A stretch of 34,216 nt of DNA from a virus (lineage: Duplodnaviria; Heunggongvirae; Uroviricota; Caudoviricetes): IMG/VR virus record IMGVR_UViG_3300029181_000137, one strand, 5' to 3'. Numbering within the stretch: the first letter of the stretch is position 1; each line of letters opens with the position of its first letter. Under the pieces are notes generated by a model that saw only the letters and a list, made by a program, of their open reading frames with translations, was not told the DNA's origin and made no database searches. Positions 14,843 to 34,216 of the stretch are shown here, in pieces. The translations under genes were made by a program, and so were the position numbers.

Positions 14843-14923
14843 TCAGGTGATACAGATTCCGGCCAGCGCCTTGCGCGCCGTTGGCTTGGGGCGACGCCCG
14901 GAACGCCCCGCCGTTCCAGCCAT
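14843..14923 (-). pseudogene. Small terminase (P27-family-like) remnant, 26 codons
   Basis: Hand translation MAGTAGRSGRRPKPTARKALAGICIT*; the GR(R/P)PKPT..K.L.G start matches my memory of P27-family small terminase N-termini, then premature stop. Confidence 0.55.
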
Positions 14924-15399: not shown

Positions 15400-15472
15400 T
15401 AATTGTTTCCTTAAGCCATTACGATGCGTCTGAAAATGAGTTAATCTGAAAATTCCTTCACTATGCGAGAGC

Positions 15473-15778
15473 ATGACAATGGTCATAGGACAAGAAGATC
15501 AGAAATGCTGCCCGGCTTGCAATTCAGATGCGACCTGGCAGAACCGTGATACCGCTTGGTTAATTAGATGCCCGATGTGTGAAACATTTCTCATCAGGAA
15601 TTCCACCATTGAAATTTTGCGAAGTGACGTTGTGTATCGGACATTAGCTGGTGACCTTCTCAAACAAGAAGGTGGGTGTGACTACATGCTTACAAGAGGA
15701 AGGCTTGCGAACTTCGCGAAAACCCAGCTCCCAAAATCAAAGTTTCAGGAATACTTCCCTGGTGACAACTACGAATAA
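15473..15778 (+). CDS. Small zinc-ribbon protein, opposite-strand ORF inside the late region
   Basis: 101-aa ORF with CPAC-x17-CPMC spacing; antisense to late transcription; weak RBS, so uncertain. Confidence 0.4.
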   Translation: MTMVIGQEDQKCCPACNSDATWQNRDTAWLIRCPMCETFLIRNSTIEILRSDVVYRTLAGDLLKQEGGCDYMLTRGRLANFAKTQLPKSKFQEYFPGDNYE

Positions 15779-15819
15779 GCCATTACAAAGCCCACCCGCA
15801 GATGAGCTTTGTAATGGCT
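15778..15819. terminator. Perfect 14-bp inverted repeat between convergent genes
   Basis: AGCCATTACAAAGC-14 nt-GCTTTGTAATGGCT; no U-tract; lies between the zinc-ribbon ORF stop and the Rz1 stop. Confidence 0.4.
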
Positions 15820-16075
15820 ACTGTGAGTTGCGTGACGTTTCTATCTTCCTGATACTGGCCTTGTCGATGTTGCACTGGCCCAGCGCCGAAAGCAGGCTCA
15901 CATTCAGATCCAGACTGGCCCCATAGGTCAGCGGGTCGGGAATGACTGGCTGGGGCGTTTCAGTGGTCAGGCTTGTTGGCAGCGGTACCGCCGGAGCCGG
16001 CACGTAAACTGTTCGCGTACTTCCGCAACCTGTCAGCAGCGGCAGCAGGCACAGGACGTACAGCACAATCATCAT
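15818..16075 (-). CDS. Rz1: o-spanin Rz1 (outer-membrane lipoprotein)
   Basis: Internal start MMIVLYVLCLLPLLTGCGS with lipobox LLTGC and Pro-rich mature part; overlaps the 3' end of Rz in another frame. Confidence 0.7.
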   Translation of the reverse strand: MMIVLYVLCLLPLLTGCGSTRTVYVPAPAVPLPTSLTTETPQPVIPDPLTYGASLDLNVSLLSALGQCNIDKASIRKIETSRNSQ

Positions 16076-16352
16076 CCGCAACAGCCCCTTTGATATCTTC
16101 CTGGGTTCTCTGTGACTCCAGTACGATCTGCTGTTTTGCATACTGGTTAGCCTCCAGAACTGTATTGACGATTTGCAGTGATTGCAGGACGTTATTGGTA
16201 ATGGCAGTTGCTGATTCAGCATTTCGTACAGCCTCATTAGCACGTTTCTTTTCGTGCTGATATTTGCTGTAGTAGTGGCTGGCAGACCAAGTGAAAGAAC
16301 CGATGACAGTCACGAAGAAAGCAGCGATAACCAGCTTATAGCTCAACTTCAT
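15960..16352 (-). CDS. Rz: i-spanin Rz
   Basis: 130-aa ORF with N-terminal TM helix (LVIAAFFVTVIGSFTW) and coiled-coil body, directly after the endolysin. Confidence 0.75.
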   Translation of the reverse strand: MKLSYKLVIAAFFVTVIGSFTWSASHYYSKYQHEKKRANEAVRNAESATAITNNVLQSLQIVNTVLEANQYAKQQIVLESQRTQEDIKGAVADDDCAVRPVPAAAADRLRKYANSLRAGSGGTAANKPDH

Positions 16353-16812
16353 TTACCACCCCGCCAGCCTCTTTAAACCGGGCAATCAGGTCACCGATTT
16401 TATGTTCATACTGACCGTAACCTGCACCGGGTAATGAAGCCCAGATATTGCTGCAACGATCGATAGCCTGACGGATATCGCCACGATCAATCATCGGTAA
16501 AGCGCCACGCTCTTTAATCTGCTGCAGTGCAACAGCGTCCTGGCTTTTCGGAGAGAAGTCTTTCAGGCCAAGCTGCTTGCGGTAGGCATCCCACCAACGG
16601 GAAAGAAGCTGGTAACGTCCGGCGGCTGTTGATTTAAGTTTCTGGTTCAGCGTGACAAGTTTGCGAGGATGATCGGAGTAATCAGTGAAGAGTTTGCCAC
16701 CAACAATAACATCATAACCGTGGTTTCGTGTTGGTTGTCGCCCGTTATCCGTTCCTTCTGACCACGCCACCATATCGAGGAAAGCTTTACGCTGAGAATT
16801 TAGTGTCTGCAT
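16336..16812 (-). CDS. R: Endolysin, lambda R-like lytic transglycosylase
   Basis: 158 aa, near-identical by memory to lambda R (NSQRKAFLDMVAWSEGTDNGRQ...HGYDVIVGG...RYQLLSRWWDAYRKQLGLKDFSP...). Confidence 0.9.
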   Translation of the reverse strand: MQTLNSQRKAFLDMVAWSEGTDNGRQPTRNHGYDVIVGGKLFTDYSDHPRKLVTLNQKLKSTAAGRYQLLSRWWDAYRKQLGLKDFSPKSQDAVALQQIKERGALPMIDRGDIRQAIDRCSNIWASLPGAGYGQYEHKIGDLIARFKEAGGVVNEVEL

Positions 16813-16815
16813 AAA

Positions 16816-17151
16816 TTACTCCTTAGAGCCACCAAACTTGTTACCGATTACTCTCATTGCAGCCCCGCGAATTGCATCGACCCCGATCAGCCCCACCCCA
16901 CCACCAATGGCAACAGAAAGCGATTTAGGCCATCCGACATACTCAAGAGCGGATGCAAAAGTCAGCGTCAGAGCGCCACAAAGCAGAATTTCGAGTGTTT
17001 TTCGTTTCCAGCCGCCACCACCACCAAAATAGGCAATACGCAAACCAGCCATAACAATCGACATAATCACTGCGCCAAGAGGCGTATCTCCACGCCACCA
17101 GCTCTGGAACAACTCCAACCAGTCCGGCCAGGTATTTGGGTTATGAGGCAT
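16816..17151 (-). CDS. S: Holin, lambda S-like (three TM segments)
   Basis: Three hydrophobic segments and GGGG turn resembling lambda S; start set at MPHNPN with GAGGTGA SD; ORF track gives an upstream start at 17223. Confidence 0.7.
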   Translation of the reverse strand: MPHNPNTWPDWLELFQSWWRGDTPLGAVIMSIVMAGLRIAYFGGGGGWKRKTLEILLCGALTLTFASALEYVGWPKSLSVAIGGGVGLIGVDAIRGAAMRVIGNKFGGSKE

Positions 17152-17228
17152 TTCGTCATCTCTCACCTCGCGATTATTTGCGGGTGCTGTGTTGGAAATA
17201 AAAAGGCCACGCAACGTGACCACCAGAA

Positions 17229-18281
17229 TTATTTCCCCACCAGTTCACTTACCTCTTTCGCCGTCTGGTTAAACCGTTCTGACTCAAGCTCAACACCTAA
17301 CGCCCGACGCCCCAGCGCCATTGCTGCTTTTATTGTGGAACCGGATCCCATAAAGAAATCAGCAACCAGATCGCCTGGCCGACTACTGGCATTGATTATT
17401 TGTCGGAGCATATCCGCTGGTTTCTCACACGGATGTTTACCCGGGTAGAACTGAACGGGGTTATGCATCCAGACATCGGTATAAGGCACGGAGACTGATA
17501 CGGAGAAATAGCGCCGGAGAGATTTAAACTCATCCAGCAATTCAGAATATTTGCGATTCAGTGAATCATAAGATGCCACCAGCTGGTGGTGTGGTTGTTC
17601 CAGTTGTTGTTTCTGAAACTTCTCTGCCGCTATACGGGAAAAAAGTGCCTGCAACTTCCGGTAGTCAGCCTCATTCGGCAACTGCCACTGACTGGCACCA
17701 AACCAGTGGGAAACCATATTTTTCTTACCTGTGGCTTCGGCAATCTGTTTTGCCGTTATACCCAGTTCGGCACGAGCATCCCTGAAATACGATATCAGCG
17801 GTGCCATTATGTGCTGTTTGAGTTCCCTTTCTTTTGCCGCATAGCCGTCACTTTTGCCGCGATATGGCCCCTGGTAATGTTCAGCAAACAGAACGCGCTC
17901 TGTGGCAGGAAAATATGCGCGCAAACTTTCTTTATTACACCCATTCCATCGTCCGGACGGCTTCGCCCAGATGATATGGTTAAGCACATTGAAACGTTCA
18001 CGCATCATGATCTCGATATCAGATGCCAGGCGATGTCCACAGAACAGGTAAAGGCTTCCGGCAGGTTTCAACACCCGCCAGAACTGGGCCAGACAGTGGT
18101 CCAGCCACTTAAGGTAATCTTCGTCCCCTTTCCACTGATTGTCCCAGCCGTTGGGCTTCACTTTGAAGTACGGTGGATCGGTAACAATCAGATCAATGGA
18201 GTCATCAGGCAGGGACTGAATAAAATGCAGGCAATCAGCGTTGATTAAATCAACACTGTTTATTTTTACAGTATTTTTCAT
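17229..18281 (-). CDS. Orphan DNA methyltransferase, beta-class (N6-adenine or N4-cytosine)
   Basis: 350-aa ORF with DPPY catalytic motif near the N-terminus (LIVTDPPYF) and AdoMet motif FxGxG near the C-terminus (DFFMGSGST); no adjacent restriction gene. Confidence 0.85.
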   Translation of the reverse strand: MKNTVKINSVDLINADCLHFIQSLPDDSIDLIVTDPPYFKVKPNGWDNQWKGDEDYLKWLDHCLAQFWRVLKPAGSLYLFCGHRLASDIEIMMRERFNVLNHIIWAKPSGRWNGCNKESLRAYFPATERVLFAEHYQGPYRGKSDGYAAKERELKQHIMAPLISYFRDARAELGITAKQIAEATGKKNMVSHWFGASQWQLPNEADYRKLQALFSRIAAEKFQKQQLEQPHHQLVASYDSLNRKYSELLDEFKSLRRYFSVSVSVPYTDVWMHNPVQFYPGKHPCEKPADMLRQIINASSRPGDLVADFFMGSGSTIKAAMALGRRALGVELESERFNQTAKEVSELVGK

Positions 18282-18416: not shown

Positions 18417-18443
18417 AAATTAAAAGCCCTTCATTGCTGAAGG
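18417..18443 (-). terminator. Intrinsic terminator-like hairpin at the end of the small ORF
   Basis: Minus strand CCTTCA-GCAA-TGAAGG followed by GCTTTTAATTT; overlaps the stop codon of ORF 18431..18649. Confidence 0.4.
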
Positions 18444-18649
18444 CGTCTGTAACAGCCGAACTGGTAATCTACCAGCCCCGCCATAACCAGCTGGGTCAGT
18501 ATTAACTGACAGCGTTCGCGTGAAAGGTATGTGTTTTGTGCAATCTCCCCGACTGTTGCCGGTTCGATGCTTAATTCATTAAAAACAACTTTTGCCGTTT
18601 CTGTCATATCTTGCTGTTTTAGCATGTCTTTTTCCCTTCTGGTTAACAT
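18431..18649 (-). CDS. Small hypothetical protein
   Basis: 72-aa ORF in late-operon orientation between the cargo cassette and the methyltransferase; no recognisable family. Confidence 0.45.
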   Translation of the reverse strand: MLTRREKDMLKQQDMTETAKVVFNELSIEPATVGEIAQNTYLSRERCQLILTQLVMAGLVDYQFGCYRRLQQ

Positions 18650-18747
18650 GACATACCAATAACTCTTGTCTAAAAAGCCAGCAAGATAAAAAGTCAGTAT
18701 TCACGACCACCAGCGTGTTTACCGTACTGCTCTTGGTTTACAGGTAC

Positions 18748-18768
18748 AAAAAAACCGCTCGACGGCGG
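18748..18768. terminator. Short GC hairpin flanked by A7/T7 runs
   Basis: AAAAAAA-CCGC-TCGACG-GCGG; reads as stem plus T7 on the minus strand; weak 4-bp stem. Confidence 0.3.
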
Positions 18769-18870
18769 GTTTAAGCTGTGTGGCGAAGTAACCACTCTTA
18801 ACAGATTATGATAGTTTTTGCGTACGCGTTAGTAATTTATTATGCTCTTTACAATTGTTAGCTTAACCGC

Positions 18871-20037
18871 ATGGAATTGACCAAAAAAATGAGCAAAGCA
18901 AGCATACGCCACGTAATCGTTCATGAGCTCTTAAAAGAATCTAATAAAGACTTCGATCACTCCAAACCATACAATCTTCGTGATACAGAACTAGATAAAA
19001 CAAATGATATAGTAAAAAAATTAGTAGACGGTGTTATTGATTTGTATGGTTCAAAAGGGAACTCAGCGCATTATGGTGTTTTTATTAAAAATAAAACAAA
19101 GCAAGGCCCTATACCAGAACTATTTCATAAATACTCTTTAGTTCAACAATCTGTTTCAAGTGATTTCATTGAATTATCGAAGGAAGTTATGAAACAAATG
19201 TATAAATCTGCTCAAGAGCAGATTTGGGCTTCTGGAGGATATGTTGTTTTTACTGATTATATTTTATCTGGTTTCCGTTATCTATTGGTTACAATGATCA
19301 AAAAAACTAATGGCGTAACTATTAGTGAAAATTTAGAGCCAGAGGAAATGATTCACTTAGAACTTGGTAATATTAACCAAGCAGCAAAAATAAATTTCAG
19401 ATATTATGAAGAATACCAAAAAGCAGATGACTTAAAAAAAACAGAGTTAAGTTATCTAAGCTTTATAAGCAAAACTACGGGACAGTCAGCGGCAGCATAT
19501 TTTATAGCAGCATTAGGATGTGACAAGGGGATTGCTTCAGCAGGTGCAACCCGTAAGTTACCAGATGAAATAAGGCGTTTCTTTAAGAAAGAACCTCTTT
19601 TAAAAAATCAAGCAGAGTCATTTAGAAATGATGTTATCAAATACTTAGAAAAGCAATTTGACAACGAGCACTCTGCAAGGCTTTCTGATATCGAATCGCT
19701 TGCTTCAGGCCATATGTCCTATTTAAAAGAGGAAGAAAAAACAGAACTTGTTGATAAATTAATGAAACACCTCAATAGTGAGGAAGTCAGAATCCCATCA
19801 GAGTTCGTAATCAATAAAAACTCCTTAGATAAAATCCGCAATGTGATATATAAAACTCCATCATTGAGCTTTCACTTCGACAAGGATTTACTCGGTGTCA
19901 CAACTGATGCTAAAATATATTATGATGACGAAAACCAAAGCCTAACATTTAATAATTTGCCTGTTGAAGCATTAACTAAGATAAGAAGAGCGTTGAAAGA
20001 AACTGATAACCCGAGTAACGAAGAAGATAAAGAATGA
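18871..20037 (+). CDS. NdpA/YejK-family (NA37) nucleoid-associated-like protein, cargo gene A
   Basis: 388-aa ORF; blocks alignable by eye to E. coli YejK (GGYVVFTDY..RYLLV...ISENLE; YLSFISKTTGQSAAAYFIAALG; FHFDKDLLG); about 30-35% GC by eye; opposite strand to phage genes. Confidence 0.8.
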   Translation: MELTKKMSKASIRHVIVHELLKESNKDFDHSKPYNLRDTELDKTNDIVKKLVDGVIDLYGSKGNSAHYGVFIKNKTKQGPIPELFHKYSLVQQSVSSDFIELSKEVMKQMYKSAQEQIWASGGYVVFTDYILSGFRYLLVTMIKKTNGVTISENLEPEEMIHLELGNINQAAKINFRYYEEYQKADDLKKTELSYLSFISKTTGQSAAAYFIAALGCDKGIASAGATRKLPDEIRRFFKKEPLLKNQAESFRNDVIKYLEKQFDNEHSARLSDIESLASGHMSYLKEEEKTELVDKLMKHLNSEEVRIPSEFVINKNSLDKIRNVIYKTPSLSFHFDKDLLGVTTDAKIYYDDENQSLTFNNLPVEALTKIRRALKETDNPSNEEDKE

Positions 20038-21260
20038 ATGATTTTAGTATAATAGTTAATCTGTATAGATTATCAAGCTATCCTCATTTTGACGGGGCTA
20101 AGTTTTCTGCGCGTATAGCTTATAATGCAGACGTAAAATCATTGTTCAAAAGAATTTTGAACCCTACTTTTCAAGCTGGTACAGCTGACGAAATAGAGGT
20201 GGATGGTCATTTAATTTATGATTATGAAGACTTTCCTGAAAAGGGAAATTTTCTTACATACTCGTTTAAAATTTCACAAGGAAGTGCGAATCGTTTTTAT
20301 AAAAATAAAAACGAGTTTGTAAAAATAAACACGCTCAAGAAAGGCATAATGCCAGAGTATTTCTATATTATAGAGGATGATTTCTATTCATTAGAAACAC
20401 CAAAACCTTCTTATATCCAAAAAATTGAGGACATTTGTGAGCTAATCAATGCTCTTTCCATGCTTGCTCATTTCCATGATATAAAAAAAGATAGCAAAGG
20501 TACATTTTATCGTTTAGTCTTTATTTTAAACTCAGAGTCTAAATCTTCTTCTGCTGTAATTGAAACAAATATTACAGAAGAAATTTTTAATGATAAAACA
20601 GTAAATACTCAGTTAGTTAAAACATTAGTAAGTAGTGAAGCTACTACTGATGCCCATCATATTGAAAAGATTAACACTTTCAGAAACACAGTTATTGAGT
20701 ATGTTAATAAAAATGGAAATTCCTTTGTCGAGTTAATTAACAAGTGGGATTTCATATGCGAACTTTATACGAACAACTTAGCTGCTTATATGTCGGCATT
20801 TTCTTTTCATAAAGCAAGGAAAGAAGTTGTTGATGCTGAACTCGATTACTCAGAAAAACTGTCAAAAATAATTTCAGAAATTTCTAACAAAGCTCTTGCC
20901 ATACCTATTTCACTAGCTGGTTCAATTGCTATTTTTAAATTAACAACAAAAGCTGATTGGATTATTGCTTTAATTGGATTGATTATCACAGCAATAATAA
21001 CATCTGCAATGATTGTGTCACAAAAAAAACAACTTGCTCGTATTTCACACTCTAAAGAAATACTTTTTGGACAATTAAGATATAGAATAAAGGATGACAC
21101 CAGCGATCTTAAAGAGAGCTTAGAAGAGGCTATTAAAAAATTAAATGACAATGAGGATTTTTGTCATAAGGTGCTTGACAGTTTATTATCACTAGCATGG
21201 ATGCCTACATTCATAGGCATCATCGGTATTTTATTTAAATTAATGCCAAATATTACTTGA
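20034..21260 (+). CDS. Membrane protein with three C-terminal TM helices, cargo gene B
   Basis: 408-aa ORF, ATGA start/stop overlap with gene A; hydrophobic segments LAIPISLAGSIAIFKL, WIIALIGLIITAIITSAMIVS, LLSLAWMPTFIGIIGILFKLM; AT-rich. Confidence 0.8.
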   Translation: MNDFSIIVNLYRLSSYPHFDGAKFSARIAYNADVKSLFKRILNPTFQAGTADEIEVDGHLIYDYEDFPEKGNFLTYSFKISQGSANRFYKNKNEFVKINTLKKGIMPEYFYIIEDDFYSLETPKPSYIQKIEDICELINALSMLAHFHDIKKDSKGTFYRLVFILNSESKSSSAVIETNITEEIFNDKTVNTQLVKTLVSSEATTDAHHIEKINTFRNTVIEYVNKNGNSFVELINKWDFICELYTNNLAAYMSAFSFHKARKEVVDAELDYSEKLSKIISEISNKALAIPISLAGSIAIFKLTTKADWIIALIGLIITAIITSAMIVSQKKQLARISHSKEILFGQLRYRIKDDTSDLKESLEEAIKKLNDNEDFCHKVLDSLLSLAWMPTFIGIIGILFKLMPNIT

Positions 21261-21612
21261 GCATGTACATAACCCCATTAATGAAACCTAACGCAGTCTG
21301 CAATTGCTTCCGGATTGTTCCATCTGAGCATCTGCGTCTCTTCGCAATAGAACGCAGTGAAATACCTATAACGAAGTGAGCAATGATCAGCTCATATTCG
21401 TCTGGTTTATACTTACACAGGCGGGCAACACAGCCGTCTATCATGATGCCTTCATCATCATCACACTGAAGGCGTATTTTTTTACCATGAGGTAAAAGCC
21501 CCTTAAAGCCTGCTGCTATCGGCTGCCAGTCCACACCACTGTTATCTGCTGCAGCCCACGCTCCCCAGCGGTCTAAAACTTCATACATATCACGCATCAA
21601 CTTTCTCCACAA
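21253..21612 (-). CDS. Q: Late antiterminator Q (QuuD / Phage_antitermQ type)
   Basis: 119 aa with LDRWGAWAA...IAAGFKGL...C..C...CSDG pattern matching my memory of DLP12 QuuD. Confidence 0.8.
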   Translation of the reverse strand: MWRKLMRDMYEVLDRWGAWAAADNSGVDWQPIAAGFKGLLPHGKKIRLQCDDDEGIMIDGCVARLCKYKPDEYELIIAHFVIGISLRSIAKRRRCSDGTIRKQLQTALGFINGVMYMLK

Positions 21613-23818: not shown

Positions 23819-24141
23819 ACTTTCAGGCCCCTCTCATGTAACCAGTAGGCTGCACGCAGCCTGGCGTTTTCCTCACCGGCAAGCAGTGAGCGGATAATCC
23901 CGACCGCCTCGCTGTCGTCATCCTTCACCGCGGTATGAAGAGTTATCCCCCGGGCCACGCCACGCTTTATCGTGATGACGCCTTTTTTCTCCAGTGCGCG
24001 AAGATGCTCTACCGCTGCATTCACTGAATGGTATCCCAGCATGGTTGCCACCTCCTGATTGGTTGGCGGAAAGCCACGCTCTTTCTGATAAGAAATCAGC
24101 ATATCCAGCACCTGCTGCTGGCATTGAGTTAACGTCGTCAT
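23815..24141 (-). CDS. LexA-type DNA-binding-domain protein lacking peptidase domain
   Basis: TQCQQQVLDMLISYQKERGFPPTNQEVATMLGYHSVNAAVEHLRALEKKGVI parallels LexA N-terminal winged helix; start set at MTTLTQ, where TAATG overlaps the upstream stop; ORF track start 24174. Confidence 0.6.
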   Translation of the reverse strand: MTTLTQCQQQVLDMLISYQKERGFPPTNQEVATMLGYHSVNAAVEHLRALEKKGVITIKRGVARGITLHTAVKDDDSEAVGIIRSLLAGEENARLRAAYWLHERGLKV

Positions 24142-24635
24142 TACGCCCCCACGTAATTCCCTGACAGATACCACTCATCACTCGATACAGCGCGCTTGCT
24201 GCTTTTCCGTAAACACTGCTCACGACGCGCCAGAAAATTGTTTCGTTCTGGCTGGGAGTGGCTTTCACGGAATGCCGCCATCCACACGGTTGCAGCACGA
24301 CGGTATAAGCCCCTTGACTCCAGTTCTTCAGCCTGGCGGGTCAGGCACAAAATCACCCGGGGATCGTTAGTGCCGACATAGAAATTGCGCACAGGTCTGG
24401 TTTCACGAACTGGTTGTGGTTCCGGCTCCTGCGCTCTCTCAGTCAGGCGCGGGAAATGTCTGCGTGTATCCCCTTCACAACGGTGAGCCACACGCCCACT
24501 CTGACGTAACTTGCTTGCTGACTGCAGAACGCGCTGCCGTGAGTAACCTGCAAAAGCATCCGCAATGTCTCCGGAAGTACACCCCGGATGGGCTTCAATG
24601 AATTTCTGAACGTCATTCAAAAGACTCATAATCAC
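24141..24635 (-). CDS. PerC-like (Pch-like) regulator domain protein
   Basis: 164-aa ORF; C-terminal AEELESRGLYRRAATVWMAAF...ARREQCL resembles the PerC family pattern as I remember it. Confidence 0.5.
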   Translation of the reverse strand: MIMSLLNDVQKFIEAHPGCTSGDIADAFAGYSRQRVLQSASKLRQSGRVAHRCEGDTRRHFPRLTERAQEPEPQPVRETRPVRNFYVGTNDPRVILCLTRQAEELESRGLYRRAATVWMAAFRESHSQPERNNFLARREQCLRKSSKRAVSSDEWYLSGNYVGA

Positions 24636-31368: not shown

Positions 31369-31718
31369 TGGAGCCATACAGCCTCACACTCGATGAGGCC
31401 TGTCATTTTCTCAAGATATCCAGACCGACTGCCATTAACTGGATACGCACAGGGCGTCTTCAGGCAACACGCAAAGATCCCACTAAGAATAAATCTCCTT
31501 ACCTCACAACACGACAAGCCTGCATTGCGGCGCTTCAGTCTCCGCTGCATACTGTCCAGGTGAGCGCGGGTGATGGCATAACAGAGGAAAGAAAATGTCA
31601 CTCTTCCGCAGAGGTGAAATATGGTACGCCAGTTTCACATTGCCGAACGGTAAAAGATTTAAACAGTCTCTTGGAACAAAGGACAAAAGGCAGGCGACAG
31701 AACTCCATGACAAGCTAA
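31368..31718 (+). CDS. xis: Excisionase (HTH_17/Xis family)
   Basis: 116-aa product from [33 protein letters not shown] with TAATG coupling and AAGAGG SD; overlaps the int start by about 120 nt. Confidence 0.65.
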
Positions 31719-32758
31719 AGGCTGAAGCATGGCGGGTCAGCAAACTTGGTGAAATACCTGATATAACGTTCGAGGAAGCGTGTGTCAGGTGGCTTGAAGA
31801 GAAAGCACATAAAAAATCACTGGACGATGACAAAAGCCGGATCGGATTCTGGCTTCAACATTTCGCAGGAATGCAACTAAGAGACATTACTGAATCAAAA
31901 ATTTATTCAGCAATGCAGAAAATGACGAACCGGCGTCATGAGGAAAACTGGAAACTCAGGGCAGAAGCATGCAGAAAAAAAGGGAAACCTGTTCCAGAAT
32001 ACACGCCAAAACCAGCGTCCGTTGCAACGAAGGCTACGCATCTTTCATTTATAAAGGCCCTACTAAGAGCCGCAGAGCGTGAATGGAAAATGCTGGATAA
32101 GGCACCAATTATTAAAGTGCCTCAACCAAAGAATAAACGGATCCGCTGGCTGGAGCCCCATGAAGCACAAAGGCTGATTGATGAATGTCCGGAGCCATTA
32201 AAGTCTGTTGTTGAATTTGCACTGGCAACAGGCTTAAGACGCTCGAACATCATCAACCTTGAATGGCAACAAATAGATATGCAGCGCCGGGTGGCATGGA
32301 TAAACCCGGAAGAGAGTAAATCAAACCGCGCAATTGGCGTTGCGCTGAATGATACTGCATGTCGCGTATTGAAAAAACAAATCGGGAATCATCACCGTTG
32401 GGTATTTGTGTACAAGGAAAGCTGTACCAAACCAGACGGAACGAAAGCGCCAACAGTAAGGAAGATGCGGTATGACGCAAACACAGCCTGGAAAGCGGCG
32501 CTGAGACGGGCTGGTATTGATGATTTCAGATTTCACGACTTGAGACACACCTGGGCAAGTTGGCTGGTTCAAGCCGGAGTCCCGTTGTCAGTTTTACAGG
32601 AAATGGGAGGCTGGGAGTCTATCGAAATGGTTCGTCGATATGCTCACCTTGCACCTAATCACCTTACCGAACACGCACGGCAAATAGACTCGATCCTGAA
32701 CCCATCGGTCCCAAATTTGTCCCAGTCAAAAAATAAGGAAGGTACTAATGATGTGTAA
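31595..32758 (+). CDS. int: Tyrosine integrase, P22-type
   Basis: 387 aa; C-terminal catalytic region with HDLRHTWAS and RRYAHLA (catalytic Tyr); ends 15 bp from the tRNA-Thr 3' end. Confidence 0.95.
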
Positions 32759-32772
32759 CTTATTGATTTTAA

Positions 32773-32848
32773 TGGTGCCGATAATAGGAGTCGAACCTAC
32801 GACCTTCGCATTACGAATGCGCTGCTCTACCAACTGAGCTATATCGGC
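32773..32848 (-). tRNA. thrW: tRNA-Thr (anticodon CGT), integration target
   Basis: Minus strand reads GCCGATATAGCTCAGTTGGTAGAGCAGCGCATTCGTAATGCGAAGGTCGTAGGTTCGACTCCTATTATCGGCACCA; anticodon loop ATTCGTAAT; encoded CCA end. Confidence 0.9.
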
Positions 32849-32962
32849 CCTGAAAGGACATGTTCACGAACGTGAATCACGGTGGACAAGGTTAAAACTA
32901 ACCGGGCGATGCGTCAATGGCCTTGTGAATCAAATGGCTACTTTTGCATCACCCGGTTTTAT

Positions 32963-34216
32963 TTACGCACGAATGGTGTAATCACCAATGCCGATCCACT
33001 TGTAAGTGGTCAGTGCTTCCAGCCCCATTGGGCCACGCGCGTGGAGTTTTTGTGTGCTTACCGCCACTTCCGCACCCAGACCAAACTGGCCGCCGTCGGT
33101 AAAACGCGTAGAGGCGTTAACGTAAACAGCGGACGAATCCACTTCGTTAACAAAACGCTGGGCGTTGCGCATATCGCGGGTCAGGATCGCATCGGAGTGT
33201 TGTGTGCCGTGTTCACGAATATGGGCGATGGCATCGTCAAGATCGCTGACGATTTTGACGTTCAAATCTAATGACAGAAACTCATCGTCATACTCTTCGG
33301 CTTTAACAGCAACCACCTTCGCAGGGCCTGCCTGCAACTGCGCCAGTGCAGCTGCATCTGCGTGTAATGTCACGCCGCTTTCCGCCATTTGTTTGCTTAA
33401 TGCGGGCAGGAAGCTATCGGCGATGTTTTTATTCACCAGCAACGTTTCAACCGTATTACATGTGCTCGGACGCTGAGTTTTCGCGTTGACGATCACTTTT
33501 AATGCTTCAGCGATCTCTACACTTTCATCAACGTAAATATGGCATACGCCTATACCACCTGTGATCACCGGGATTGTCGACTGTTCACGGCACAGTTTAT
33601 GCAAACCAGCGCCACCACGCGGGATCAGCATGTCGATGTATTTATCCATACGCAGCATTTCACTGACCAGCGCACGGTCAGGATTATCAATCGCCTGCAC
33701 GGCACCCGCCGGTAAGCCGCAGGATTTCAGGGCGTCCTGAATCACCGCCACCGTTGCAGCGTTAGTGCGACACGTTTCTTTGCCACCGCGCAGGATCACC
33801 GCATTACCGGTTTTCAGGCACAGCGAAGCGACATCAACCGTCACGTTCGGGCGCGCTTCATAAATCACGCCAATAACCCCCAGCGGTACGCGACGACGCT
33901 CAAGACGCAGGCCGCTGTCCAGTACGCCGCCATCGATTACCTGCCCCACCGGATCGGCGAGGTTGCACACCTGACGTACATCGTCGGCAATGCCTTTCAG
34001 CCGTGCGGGCGTCAGTGCCAGACGGTCAAGCATCGCTTCGCTAAGGCCATTGGCTCGCGCGTCAGCAACATCCTGGGCGTTAGCGTTGAGGATGATTTCG
34101 CTTTGTGCTTCCAGTTCATCGGCGATTTTTTCCAGCACGCGATTTTTTTCGCGGCTGGAGAGTTGCGCTAATTTATACGAGGCTTGCTTCGCGGCAATGC
34201 CCATTTGTTCCAGCAT
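32963..34216 (-). CDS. proA: Gamma-glutamyl phosphate reductase (host gene)
   Basis: 417-aa ORF whose start codon is the last 3 bases of the window; recognised as E. coli ProA ([36 protein letters not shown]...). Confidence 0.95.

What the first reader, a model, noticed from the sequence alone, without database searches (positions are those of the whole stretch)
17229..18281. Orphan beta-class DNA methyltransferase between Q/tR' region and the holin
DPPY motif precedes the FxGxG AdoMet motif (beta-class order, CcrM-like), with a roughly 170-aa insertion that could be a target-recognition domain. No restriction partner is adjacent. Co-transcription with lysis genes suggests late expression to methylate progeny DNA (anti-restriction) or to modulate host epigenetics during induction.
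Basis: partly seen in the sequence, partly recalled or inferred. Interest (0 to 1): 0.5.

Follow-up and report, generated by a model that had tools for sequence, protein, structure and literature searches.

The report
M.EcoGII-family prophage adenine methyltransferase gene
The flagged gene is a real and intact DNA adenine methyltransferase, but it is an ordinary copy of the well-studied prophage enzyme family typified by M.EcoGII, which methylates adenines in any sequence context, and it occupies that family's usual place just upstream of the phage lysis genes.

Summary
A 350-aa ORF fills 17229-18281 exactly, but on the minus strand. DPPY (aa 35-38) precedes FMGSG (aa 310-314). About 166 residues between the two lobes have no counterpart in solved beta-class MTases.

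It is not novel. The protein is 81% identical, without gaps, to M.EcoGII, the characterised non-specific N6-adenine MTase of an E. coli O104:H4 prophage. It is 98% identical to SfV orf48. The gene occurs in 1260 of 5426 complete E. coli genomes and in phages SfV, cdtI, mEp460 and Ayreon.

The order Q, small ORF, MTase, holin recurs in E. coli and Klebsiella prophages; an Erwinia prophage keeps MTase-holin downstream of Q. No restriction gene is adjacent. Alleles differ mostly at synonymous sites (pN/pS 0.04-0.10). The catalytic motifs are intact; one atypical substitution, K274N, is present.

Best explanation: a Q-dependent late gene that is silent in the lysogen and methylates replicating phage DNA at adenines in any context, giving blanket protection from restriction. 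This is inferred from M.EcoGII, not shown here.

One caveat is that this prophage lacks its terminase genes and the 5' end of the portal gene, so it probably makes no progeny to protect.

Interest is low.

The parts
17229..18281 (-). M.EcoGII-family beta-class N6-adenine DNA methyltransferase CDS (350 aa plus stop)
   Evidence: ORF. PF01555 E=1.7e-42. 81% identity without gaps to M.EcoGII. 98% to SfV orf48. pN/pS 0.04-0.10 against four alleles.
18168..18179 (-). Catalytic motif IV, DPPY (aa 35-38)
   Evidence: Regex on the translation. Invariant D35 P36 P37 Y38 in the 32-sequence family alignment.
17340..17354 (-). AdoMet-binding motif I, F-M-G-S-G (aa 310-314; D308 F309 F310 G312 S313 G314 are invariant in the family)
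17439..17936 (-). Central region (aa ~116-281) with no counterpart in solved beta-class MTases. By homology to M.EcoGII it contains linker 1 (135-159), a four-helix-bundle HTH target-recognition domain (160-237; nt 17571-17804) and linker 2 (238-259).
   Evidence: PDB sequence alignments cover only aa 9-115 and 282-341. Domain limits come from the published AlphaFold model of M.EcoGII. Identity to M.EcoGII is 77% in the TRD and 72-73% in the linkers, with identical K+R counts. My own AF2 model shows helices at 146-173, 177-184, 190-194, 204-223 and 231-255, but at only moderate confidence.
17458..17460 (-). Codon for N274, the only residue that departs from a near-invariant family position (K in 30 of 31 homologues, R in 1)
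   Evidence: Column analysis of alignment A2. SfV orf48 has K at this position.
18431..18649 (-). Small leader ORF (72 aa as the longest ORF; 63-77 aa as annotated elsewhere), phrog_331, with a weak winged-helix signal. It is the first gene of the late transcript, upstream of the MTase.
   Evidence: ORF. phrog_331 E=1.4e-34. Sub-threshold TrmB, DprA_WH and MarR_2 hits. Conserved upstream of the MTase in SfV, 1720a-02, TA8571, mEp460, 720R4 and Klebsiella prophages. It also occurs without the MTase.
18747..18766 (-). tR'-like element: short GC hairpin (CCGCCGTCGAGCGG) followed by T7
   Evidence: Terminator scan. Aligns with the annotated 'putative rho-independent terminator' downstream of Q in SfV. 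The hairpin is weak by energy alone (-7.4 kcal/mol for the 51-nt stretch folded, z=0.08).
18772..18845 (-). Candidate pR'/Q-loading region. This block is conserved only among prophages with the same PF06530-type Q and is replaced by a different block in phages with the SfV-type Q.
   Evidence: Alignment A1. No consensus sigma-70 promoter was called here, so the assignment rests on position and on co-variation with Q type.
17205..17221 (-). Terminator-like hairpin (7-bp GC-rich stem plus T-run) between the MTase stop and the holin start
   Evidence: Terminator scan. -12.5 kcal/mol, z=-2.6. The homologous position is annotated as a terminator in SfV.
16816..17151 (-). Holin S (111 aa from the ATG at 17151)
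   Evidence: PF05106 E=4.9e-27. SfV S is 111 aa.
16336..16812 (-). Endolysin R
   Evidence: Homologous to the SfV and 720R4 endolysin by position and about 94% nt identity.
15960..16352 (-). Rz spanin (an Rz1-type ORF is embedded)
   Evidence: PF10828. SfV and 720R4 annotation.
21253..21612 (-). Antiterminator Q (PF06530 type), the presumed activator of the late operon that contains the MTase
   Evidence: PF06530 E=5e-44.

Best explanation
The ORF encodes an orphan beta-class N6-adenine methyltransferase of the M.EcoGII family. It is the second gene of the Q-dependent late operon of an SfV-like lambdoid prophage integrated at thrW. In the lysogen, transcripts from pR' should stop at tR', so the enzyme is not made (inferred). 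After induction, Q-modified RNA polymerase should read through tR' and through the hairpin between the MTase and the holin. The MTase would then be made together with the lysis proteins (inferred from architecture). Like M.EcoGII, the enzyme most likely acts as a homodimer. Its basic four-helix HTH domain and charged linkers would bind nucleic acid without reading bases, and it would methylate adenines in essentially any context. That would leave replicating or packaged phage DNA refractory to many adenine-sensitive restriction systems in the next host (inferred by homology). Shown here: the gene is intact, both motifs are present, homology is full-length, synteny is conserved, no restriction gene is adjacent, and selection is purifying. 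Not shown here: expression timing, activity, lack of specificity and any anti-restriction benefit. This particular prophage has lost its terminase genes, so the gene is probably a still-intact passenger here.
For: PF01555 E=1.7e-42, with DPPY and FMGSG in beta order. 283/348 identities with no gaps to M.EcoGII (sequence from PMC11551740 Table S1). Identity by region is 90% (N core), 77% (TRD), 72-73% (linkers) and 77% (C core), with identical numbers of basic residues in each region. M.EcoGII methylates adenine in any context, is silent in the lysogen, and was proposed to defeat host restriction (PMC5778455). All five reconstructed family ancestors keep DNA and RNA methylation activity, and the nanopore assay of M.EcoGII and its variants found them largely non-sequence-specific. 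Homologues with about 93% similarity to M.EcoGI/GII are listed with predicted specificity 'nonspecific', and no extra methylated motif was detected in the lysogens. Same gene at about 97% nt in SfV orf48, cdtI, mEp460 and Ayreon; 1260 of 5426 complete E. coli genomes; 3064 clusters with E<=1e-10, the best 120 coming from many genera of Enterobacterales. Synteny Q, small ORF, MTase, holin in SfV, 720R4, TA8571, mEp460_4F5 and Klebsiella, and MTase-holin downstream of Q in Erwinia. Q, small ORF, MTase, then stx2A or tRNAs in 1720a-02 and EC15. The pR'-type block and tR' co-vary with Q type and lie directly upstream. pN/pS is 0.04-0.10. Foldseek top hits are all beta-class N6A/N4C MTases. No restriction-like neighbour.
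Against: There are no activity or expression data for this allele. 19% of residues differ from M.EcoGII, including 23% of the TRD, so some sequence preference cannot be excluded. K274N alters a position that is K or R in all 31 aligned homologues. The tR'-like hairpin is weak by energy and no consensus promoter was called in the candidate pR' block. A terminator-like hairpin separates the MTase from the holin. The prophage lacks terS, terL, the head-tail joining gene and the 5' end of the portal gene, so progeny protection cannot operate without a helper. My AF2 model reached only mean pLDDT 66.9.
Confidence: 0.8

Rival explanations
1. It is a sequence-specific orphan MTase with a defined recognition motif set by its TRD, and not a non-specific enzyme.
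For: The TRD is only 77% identical to that of M.EcoGII. The SUPREM paper notes that the site-specific M.PflMI has a similar predicted overall fold. NCBI annotation calls family members 'site-specific DNA-methyltransferase'.
Against: M.PflMI lacks the charged linker, whereas this protein keeps both linkers without gaps and with the same basic-residue counts as M.EcoGII. All five reconstructed family ancestors are active on DNA and RNA, and the nanopore assay found M.EcoGII and its variants largely non-sequence-specific. The window protein differs from the family majority consensus at few positions. The NCBI name is a generic label, not a tested property.
Confidence: 0.08
2. It is an inactive or decaying relic: the gene looks intact but the enzyme no longer works, or is never expressed, in a defective prophage.
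For: A 2.5-kb deletion removes terS (all but its first 66 nt), terL, the head-tail joining gene and the first 192 nt of the portal gene. That junction occurs in none of 5426 complete E. coli genomes. K274N lies at a near-invariant basic position. The tR'-like hairpin has one stem pair fewer than in SfV.
Against: The reading frame is full-length with all invariant motif residues. Only 4-7 amino-acid changes accompany 23-34 nucleotide changes relative to functional-phage alleles. The Q gene, the lysis cassette and the leader are intact. The uniqueness of the deletion suggests it is recent.
Confidence: 0.1
3. Its main in vivo substrate is RNA (host rRNA, mRNA or phage transcripts), so it modulates translation late in infection and does not primarily protect DNA.
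For: M.EcoGII methylates rA in RNA and in DNA:RNA hybrids in vitro. An unrelated Stx-phage MT-A70 enzyme is redirected to 16S rRNA by a small winged-helix partner. Here a small ORF with a weak winged-helix signal lies just upstream.
Against: M.EcoGII is far more active on DNA. Residue 179 is Q here, as in M.EcoGII, and not the E that the SUPREM study linked to high RNA activity. The rRNA MTase belongs to a different family and genome position. The small ORF also occurs where the MTase is replaced by an unrelated gene.
Confidence: 0.04
4. It acts in the lysogen as an epigenetic regulator of host genes, in the manner of Dam or CcrM.
For: It is an orphan MTase of the same class as CcrM.
Against: It scores far below the CcrM and YhdJ equivalog cut-offs. 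It sits behind a terminator in a Q-dependent late operon. M.EcoGI and M.EcoGII are not expressed in the lysogen, and forced expression slows growth. No extra methylated motifs were found in STEC strains carrying homologues.
Confidence: 0.02

Closest known systems
M.EcoGII (and its close homologue M.EcoGI) of E. coli O104:H4 C227-11 prophages (Murray et al. 2018, PMC5778455)
   Same: Beta-class order DPPY, TRD, FxGxG. 349 vs 350 aa. 81% identity and 91% similarity with no gaps. Prophage-borne orphan. A 95%-identical allele sits at Q, small ORF, MTase. Q179 is shared.
   Different: 19% of residues differ; this is a different sub-clade, the SfV orf48 type. K274N is specific to this copy. Here the gene is followed directly by the holin, and not by tRNAs or stx. 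Activity of this allele is untested.
SfV orf48 and the equivalent 'DNA methylase' genes of phages cdtI, mEp460, Ayreon, vB_EcoM-720R4, PhiR40_1
   Same: 96.6-97.2% nt identity over the whole gene. 343/350 aa identical to SfV orf48. Same order: small ORF, MTase, hairpin, S, R, Rz.
   Different: The Q module differs (PF06530-type Q plus a two-gene moron here, against a 250-aa Q in SfV and 720R4). SfV, TA8571 and 1720a-02 also carry an early Dam-like MTase that has no homologue in this window. Those phages have terminase genes.
CcrM (Caulobacter) and YhdJ-type (PRK11524) orphan beta-class adenine MTases
   Same: Same class and catalytic fold. Foldseek and phmmer hits to CcrM 6pbd.
   Different: Not orthologous: 68 bits against a cut-off of 830 for CcrM, and 109 against 292 for PRK11524. 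Those enzymes are sequence-specific, chromosomal and expressed in growing cells, with different TRDs. CcrM also has a C-terminal domain that is absent here.
M.BceJIV (PDB 8urk, 9c3s-u), the closest solved structure
   Same: Best sequence match (E=3e-24) and best Foldseek match (E=1.7e-9) in the PDB. Beta-class N6-adenine MTase core.
   Different: Only about 20% identity. 249-283 aa, without the ~166-aa central region. Alignments cover only the two core lobes.
Phage N15 gp52
   Same: 56% identical to M.EcoGII over 97% of its length, so a more distant member of the same family in another temperate coliphage.
   Different: More divergent. Its genomic context was not examined here.
Stx-phage MT-A70 methyltransferase with PNB-2 (16S rRNA MTase; Gong et al. 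2023, PMC10810198)
   Same: A prophage-encoded adenine-MTase-like enzyme preceded by a small winged-helix ORF.
   Different: Different family (MT-A70, related to M.EcoGV). [quoted passage not shown] It needs the partner for activity, whereas M.EcoGII is active alone.

Membership tests
Beta-class amino (N6A/N4C) DNA methyltransferases (Pfam PF01555) | Catalytic motif IV (D/S/N-P-P-Y/F/W) lies N-terminal to AdoMet motif I (FxGxG) | tested here: met
   DPPY at aa 35-38 and FMGSG at aa 310-314. PF01555 covers 29-341, E=1.7e-42.
Beta-class amino (N6A/N4C) DNA methyltransferases (Pfam PF01555) | Rossmann-type MTase core resembling solved beta-class enzymes | tested here: met
   The top 37 Foldseek PDB hits (E<=1e-3) are all beta-class MTases: M.BceJIV, CcrM, TTHA0409, M.MboIIA, M1.HpyAVI, M.RsrI, M.PvuII and the rotifer N4C MTase. 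The model has only moderate confidence (pLDDT 66.9).
M.EcoGII family (non-specific prophage adenine MTases) | Full-length colinear homology to M.EcoGII, including the TRD and both charged linkers | tested here: met
   283/348 identical with no gaps. TRD 77%, linkers 72-73%, identical K+R counts.
M.EcoGII family (non-specific prophage adenine MTases) | Encoded on a lambdoid prophage as an orphan, with no cognate restriction endonuclease | tested here: met
   The neighbours are Q, a small ORF, holin, endolysin and Rz. No restriction enzyme was found by Pfam or PADLOC. The prophage is integrated at thrW next to a proA-like gene.
M.EcoGII family (non-specific prophage adenine MTases) | Methylates adenine in any sequence context (dsDNA, ssDNA, RNA) | not testable with these tools
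   Inferred only, from M.EcoGII and reconstructed ancestors and the listed 'nonspecific' prediction for homologues.
M.EcoGII family (non-specific prophage adenine MTases) | Transcriptionally silent in the lysogen and expressed on induction | not testable with these tools
   The architecture is consistent: the gene lies downstream of a tR'-like hairpin and a Q-type-specific leader. There are no expression data.
CcrM family (cell-cycle-regulated GANTC MTases) | Scores above the NCBIfam equivalog cut-off and has the CcrM C-terminal domain | tested here: not met
   NF050803 scores 68.1 bits against a cut-off of 830. Only the motif I region (282-344) aligns.
YhdJ / PRK11524 adenine-specific MTases | Scores above the NCBIfam equivalog cut-off | tested here: not met
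   NF008572 scores 109.1 bits against a cut-off of 292.
Type II restriction-modification system | A cognate restriction endonuclease gene adjacent to the MTase | tested here: not met
   Both flanks are phage late and lysis genes. PADLOC matches only MTase models for this protein and nothing for the nearby NA37 and 408-aa genes.
Lambdoid Q-dependent late operon | Order Q gene, pR', tR', late genes, lysis cassette, all on one strand | tested here: inconclusive
   The order and strand are met, and a leader block co-varies with Q type. However, pR' was not called by the consensus scan, tR' is weak by energy, and a 2.4-kb opposite-strand insert separates Q from the leader.

The most novel reading that the evidence does not exclude
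The conserved small ORF with a weak winged-helix signal (phrog_331, 18431-18649) that opens the late transcript just upstream of the MTase might be a functional partner. It could gate or retarget the otherwise indiscriminate enzyme, for example towards phage DNA or a particular RNA. The analogy is PNB-2, which redirects an unrelated Stx-phage MT-A70 methyltransferase to 16S rRNA. If so, the in vivo activity of M.EcoGII-type enzymes would differ from the 'non-specific' activity measured for the isolated protein.
Probability: 0.05. Interest if true: 0.55.

Novelty: already known. Interest (0 to 1): 0.12.

Why it matters
It matters little as a discovery. The gene family, its biochemistry and its prophage location are published, and M.EcoGII has been biochemically characterised and engineered as a methylation tool (PMC5778455, PMC11551740). 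The practical result is an annotation: the gene should be named an M.EcoGII-family (SfV orf48-type) non-specific adenine MTase, not a 'site-specific' or 'CcrM-like' enzyme. Methylome studies of the host should expect no motif from it unless the prophage late operon is switched on. The in vivo role of this very widespread late gene (about a quarter of complete E. coli genomes) has still not been demonstrated genetically in the papers I found. That is an open but modest question.

Tried and rejected
(1) I looked for a second, Dam-like MTase such as the one in the early operon of SfV, TA8571 and 1720a-02. tblastn of SfV Dam against the window found nothing below E=0.1. PerC (24635-24141) abuts the LexA-like gene (24174-23815), the position where that gene sits in TA8571 and 1720a-02.

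(2) I tested whether the 16S rRNA methyltransferase of Stx phages is the same gene. It is not: it is an MT-A70 enzyme at a different locus.

(3) I tested whether the small upstream ORF is an obligate partner of the MTase. Its region occurs in 2297 genomes against 1260 for the MTase, and in O157:H7 strain 9234 it precedes an unrelated 237-aa HTH protein. So the linkage is positional, not exclusive.

(4) AlphaFold2 with 32 close homologues gave only mean pLDDT 66.9, with two segments below 50. I therefore used it only for class-level fold matching and did not analyse the TRD fold.

(5) The supplementary table of homologues in the M.EcoGII paper is not held. I took the M.EcoGII protein sequence from the SUPREM paper's Table S1 and corrected three obvious PDF-reading errors, one of them (NHII) against that paper's DNA sequence and the other two by comparison with close homologues. 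The 81% figure could therefore be off by a residue or two.

(6) The consensus promoter scan found no minus-strand pR' candidate between 18772 and 18870.

(7) I tried to name the Q family from the literature. The Yin et al. preprint prints PF06530 for both the Q21/Q933W and Q82 families, so I call it only 'PF06530-type Q'.

(8) PADLOC found no known defence system in the NA37 plus 408-aa gene pair.
Full report
**Observation.** The stated coordinates hold one 350-aa ORF, but it runs on the minus strand: ATG at 18281 and stop codon at 17231-17229. The plus strand of the same stretch is full of stop codons. The protein matches Pfam PF01555 (N6_N4_Mtase) over residues 29-341 at E=1.7e-42. DPPY is at residues 35-38 and F-M-G-S-G at 310-314, which is the beta-class order. 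Sequence alignments to every solved relative (M.BceJIV, M.RsrI, M.MboIIA, CcrM, M1.HpyAVI, TTHA0409) break into two stretches, about 9-115 and about 282-341.

**Identity.**
- The gene is about 97% identical in nucleotides to annotated DNA methylase genes of phages SfV (orf48), cdtI, mEp460, Ayreon and vB_EcoM-720R4.
- It is present in 1260 of 5426 complete E. coli genomes.
- A protein search returned 3064 90%-identity clusters with E<=1e-10. The best 120 come from Escherichia, Citrobacter, Klebsiella, Salmonella, Enterobacter, Cronobacter, Pantoea, Erwinia and others.
- The prototype of the family is M.EcoGII, the non-specific adenine methyltransferase encoded on a prophage of E. coli O104:H4 C227-11 (PMC5778455).
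- I took the M.EcoGII sequence from Table S1 of the SUPREM paper (PMC11551740). The window protein is 283/348 identical (81%, 91% positives) with no gaps.
- Using the published domain limits, identity is 90% in the N-terminal core, 72% and 73% in the two charged linkers, 77% in the four-helix HTH target-recognition domain and 77% in the C-terminal core. Each region has the same number of Lys+Arg as M.EcoGII.
- The protein is 343/350 identical to SfV orf48.
- It falls far below the NCBIfam equivalog cut-offs for CcrM (68 against 830 bits) and YhdJ/PRK11524 (109 against 292). "CcrM-like" is therefore true only at class level.
- An AlphaFold2 model built from 32 close homologues reached only pLDDT 66.9. 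Its Foldseek hits with E<=1e-3 are nevertheless all beta-class MTases.

**Integrity.** All invariant family residues, including D35 P36 P37 Y38 and D308 F309 F310 G312 S313 G314, are present. Against four other alleles there are 23-34 nucleotide differences but only 4-7 amino-acid differences, giving pN/pS of 0.04-0.10. The one departure from a near-invariant column is K274N, where 30 of 31 homologues have K and one has R. Its effect is unknown.

**Context (minus strand).** The gene order is:
- DUF968/YdfU (22610-21615);
- Q of the PF06530 type (21612-21253);
- two plus-strand genes, NA37 nucleoid-associated-like (18871-20037) and a 408-aa protein of unknown function (20034-21260);
- a leader block of about 100 bp;
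- a short GC hairpin plus T7 (18766-18747);
- a 72-aa ORF (18649-18431);
- the MTase;
- a 7-bp GC hairpin plus T-run (17221-17205);
- holin S (17151-16816), endolysin (16812-16336), Rz/Rz1 and an HNH gene.

SfV annotates both hairpin positions as putative rho-independent terminators. Alignment of the Q-to-small-ORF interval shows that the block just upstream of the first hairpin is shared only by prophages with the same small Q (1720a-02, mEp460_4F5). It is replaced by a different block in SfV and 720R4, which have another Q. That is the expected behaviour of a pR'/Q-loading cassette. The plus-strand gene pair therefore appears to be an insertion between Q and pR' that leaves the late transcription unit intact. 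About 30 complete E. coli genomes carry exactly this arrangement. The promoter itself was not called by the consensus scan, and the first hairpin is weak by energy. "Late, Q-dependent" remains an architectural inference.

**Synteny elsewhere.**
- Klebsiella prophages have Q, a 63-73-aa ORF, the MTase and the holin.
- An Erwinia prophage has a lambda-type Q, a 162-aa ORF, an opposite-strand AAA_13 gene, the MTase and the holin.
- Phage 1720a-02, which the M.EcoGII authors name as carrying a very similar MTase, has Q, the small ORF, the MTase and stx2A.
- E. coli EC15 carries an allele 95% identical to M.EcoGII at Q, small ORF, MTase, tRNA-Ile, tRNA-Arg.
- Phage N15 gp52 is a 56%-identical relative. 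933W-type Stx2a phages keep only a 33-residue C-terminal remnant.

No neighbour resembles a restriction endonuclease, so the gene is an orphan.

**Mechanism.** The M.EcoGII paper shows methylation of adenine in any context on dsDNA, ssDNA, DNA:RNA hybrids and RNA. It reports up to 99% modification in vitro, resistance of the product to many restriction enzymes, silence in the lysogen and slow growth when over-expressed. It proposes that the enzyme is switched on as the prophage excises in order to defeat host restriction. The SUPREM study found that M.EcoGII and its ancestors elute as dimers. [quoted passage not shown] It attributes non-specific binding to the basic surface of the TRD and linker. 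STEC homologues with about 93% similarity are listed as 'nonspecific', and no additional methylated motif was detected in those lysogens. By homology, I assign the window protein the same activity and role at about 0.8 confidence. No step of that function is demonstrated for this allele.

**Caveat for this copy.** Relative to phage 720R4, window positions 14858/14857 join nucleotide 66 of terS directly to nucleotide 193 of the portal gene. This removes 2543 bp containing the rest of terS, terL, the head-tail joining gene and the portal 5' end. No complete E. coli genome spans this junction. The prophage is integrated at thrW, next to a 417-aa aldehyde-dehydrogenase-family gene that I take to be proA. 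It therefore probably cannot package DNA, so "protecting progeny" is moot here unless a helper phage supplies terminase. The deletion could also be an assembly artefact.

**Rivals.**
- A sequence-specific enzyme (0.08) is disfavoured by the retained linkers and by the non-specificity reported for M.EcoGII and its engineered variants.
- An inactive relic (0.10) is suggested by K274N and the defective prophage, but opposed by the intact frame and the low pN/pS.
- An RNA-directed role (0.04) has no direct support, and residue 179 is Q, as in M.EcoGII, and not the E linked to high RNA activity.
- A regulatory role in the lysogen (0.02) conflicts with the published silence of the family.

The Stx-phage 16S rRNA methyltransferase is an MT-A70 enzyme at another locus, so it is not this gene.

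**The small upstream ORF.** It belongs to phrog_331 (E=1.4e-34, unknown function) and has only sub-threshold winged-helix matches. It accompanies the MTase in E. coli and Klebsiella prophages. It is also more widespread than the MTase (2297 against 1260 genomes) and can precede an unrelated gene. It is best regarded as a leader gene of the late operon. A partner role is the most novel reading not excluded, at about 0.05.

**Verdict.** It is already known and very common, so interest is low (0.12).

Noticed in passing
window 14857/14858 (minus-strand order: HNH 15486-15049, then portal fragment 14771-13809): A 2543-bp deletion relative to phage vB_EcoM-720R4 joins nt 66 of terS to nt 193 of the portal gene. 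It removes the rest of terS, terL, the head-tail joining gene and the portal 5' end. The junction occurs in none of 5426 complete E. coli genomes, so the prophage is probably packaging-defective, or the assembly is wrong.
   Followed up: partly
window 18871-21260 (+ strand): A two-gene cassette lies on the opposite strand between Q and the pR'/tR' leader: an NA37/YejK-like nucleoid-associated protein (388 aa, PF04245, phrog_3767) and a 408-aa protein of unknown function (phrog_5023, no Pfam). It is conserved as a unit in about 30 complete E. coli genomes and matches no PADLOC defence model. Other prophages carry different inserts at the same spot (a 308-aa ORF in mEp460_4F5, an AAA_13 gene in Erwinia), so this looks like a moron or defence hot spot.
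   Followed up: partly
window 18431-18649 (- strand): A small ORF (phrog_331) with sub-threshold winged-helix matches (TrmB, DprA_WH, MarR_2) is the first gene after tR'. It comes in two sequence variants that share the MLKQQDMTETA and RCQLILTQLV motifs. It is more widespread than the MTase and sometimes precedes an unrelated HTH protein.
   Followed up: partly
window 24141-24174 (junction of the PerC-like and LexA-like genes): The early-operon Dam-like phage N6-adenine MTase (654 bp) lies between the PerC and LexA-like genes in TA8571 and just upstream of the LexA-like gene in 1720a-02. SfV carries the same gene in its early region. It is absent here: the two genes overlap, and tblastn with SfV Dam finds nothing.
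   Followed up: yes
window 17458-17460 (codon 274 of the MTase): Asn replaces a Lys that is K in 30 and R in 1 of 31 aligned family members. The position lies in the conserved DVWTHKPVQ(F/Y)YPGKHP segment ahead of the C-terminal core. The functional effect is unknown.
   Followed up: partly
window 15404-15860: About 457 bp between Rz/Rz1 and the HNH gene has no counterpart in SfV or 720R4, where the interval is about 81 bp. It contains a plus-strand 101-aa ORF (15473-15778) with two CxxC pairs.
   Followed up: no
phage records hit (for example CP111102.1 EDL933-Stx 53068-53166 and NC_004914.3 52345-52443): 933W-type Stx2a phages retain only a 33-residue remnant (aa 316-348, 85-88% identical) of the M.EcoGII-type MTase. 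This suggests the gene was truncated when the late region of those phages was remodelled.
   Followed up: no
window 31595-34216: The prophage end comprises an integrase-sized ORF (31595-32758, +; not checked by a domain search), tRNA-Thr(CGT) at 32773-32848 (-) and a 417-aa aldehyde-dehydrogenase-family gene (32963-34216, -). The last is most likely proA, judging from its size and family (my inference). This would be the thrW attachment site used by SfV-like phages.
   Followed up: partly
bioRxiv 10.1101/651190, main text: The preprint prints Pfam PF06530 for both the Q21/Q933W and the Q82 families. The classical family of this window's Q therefore could not be named from that source.
   Followed up: no
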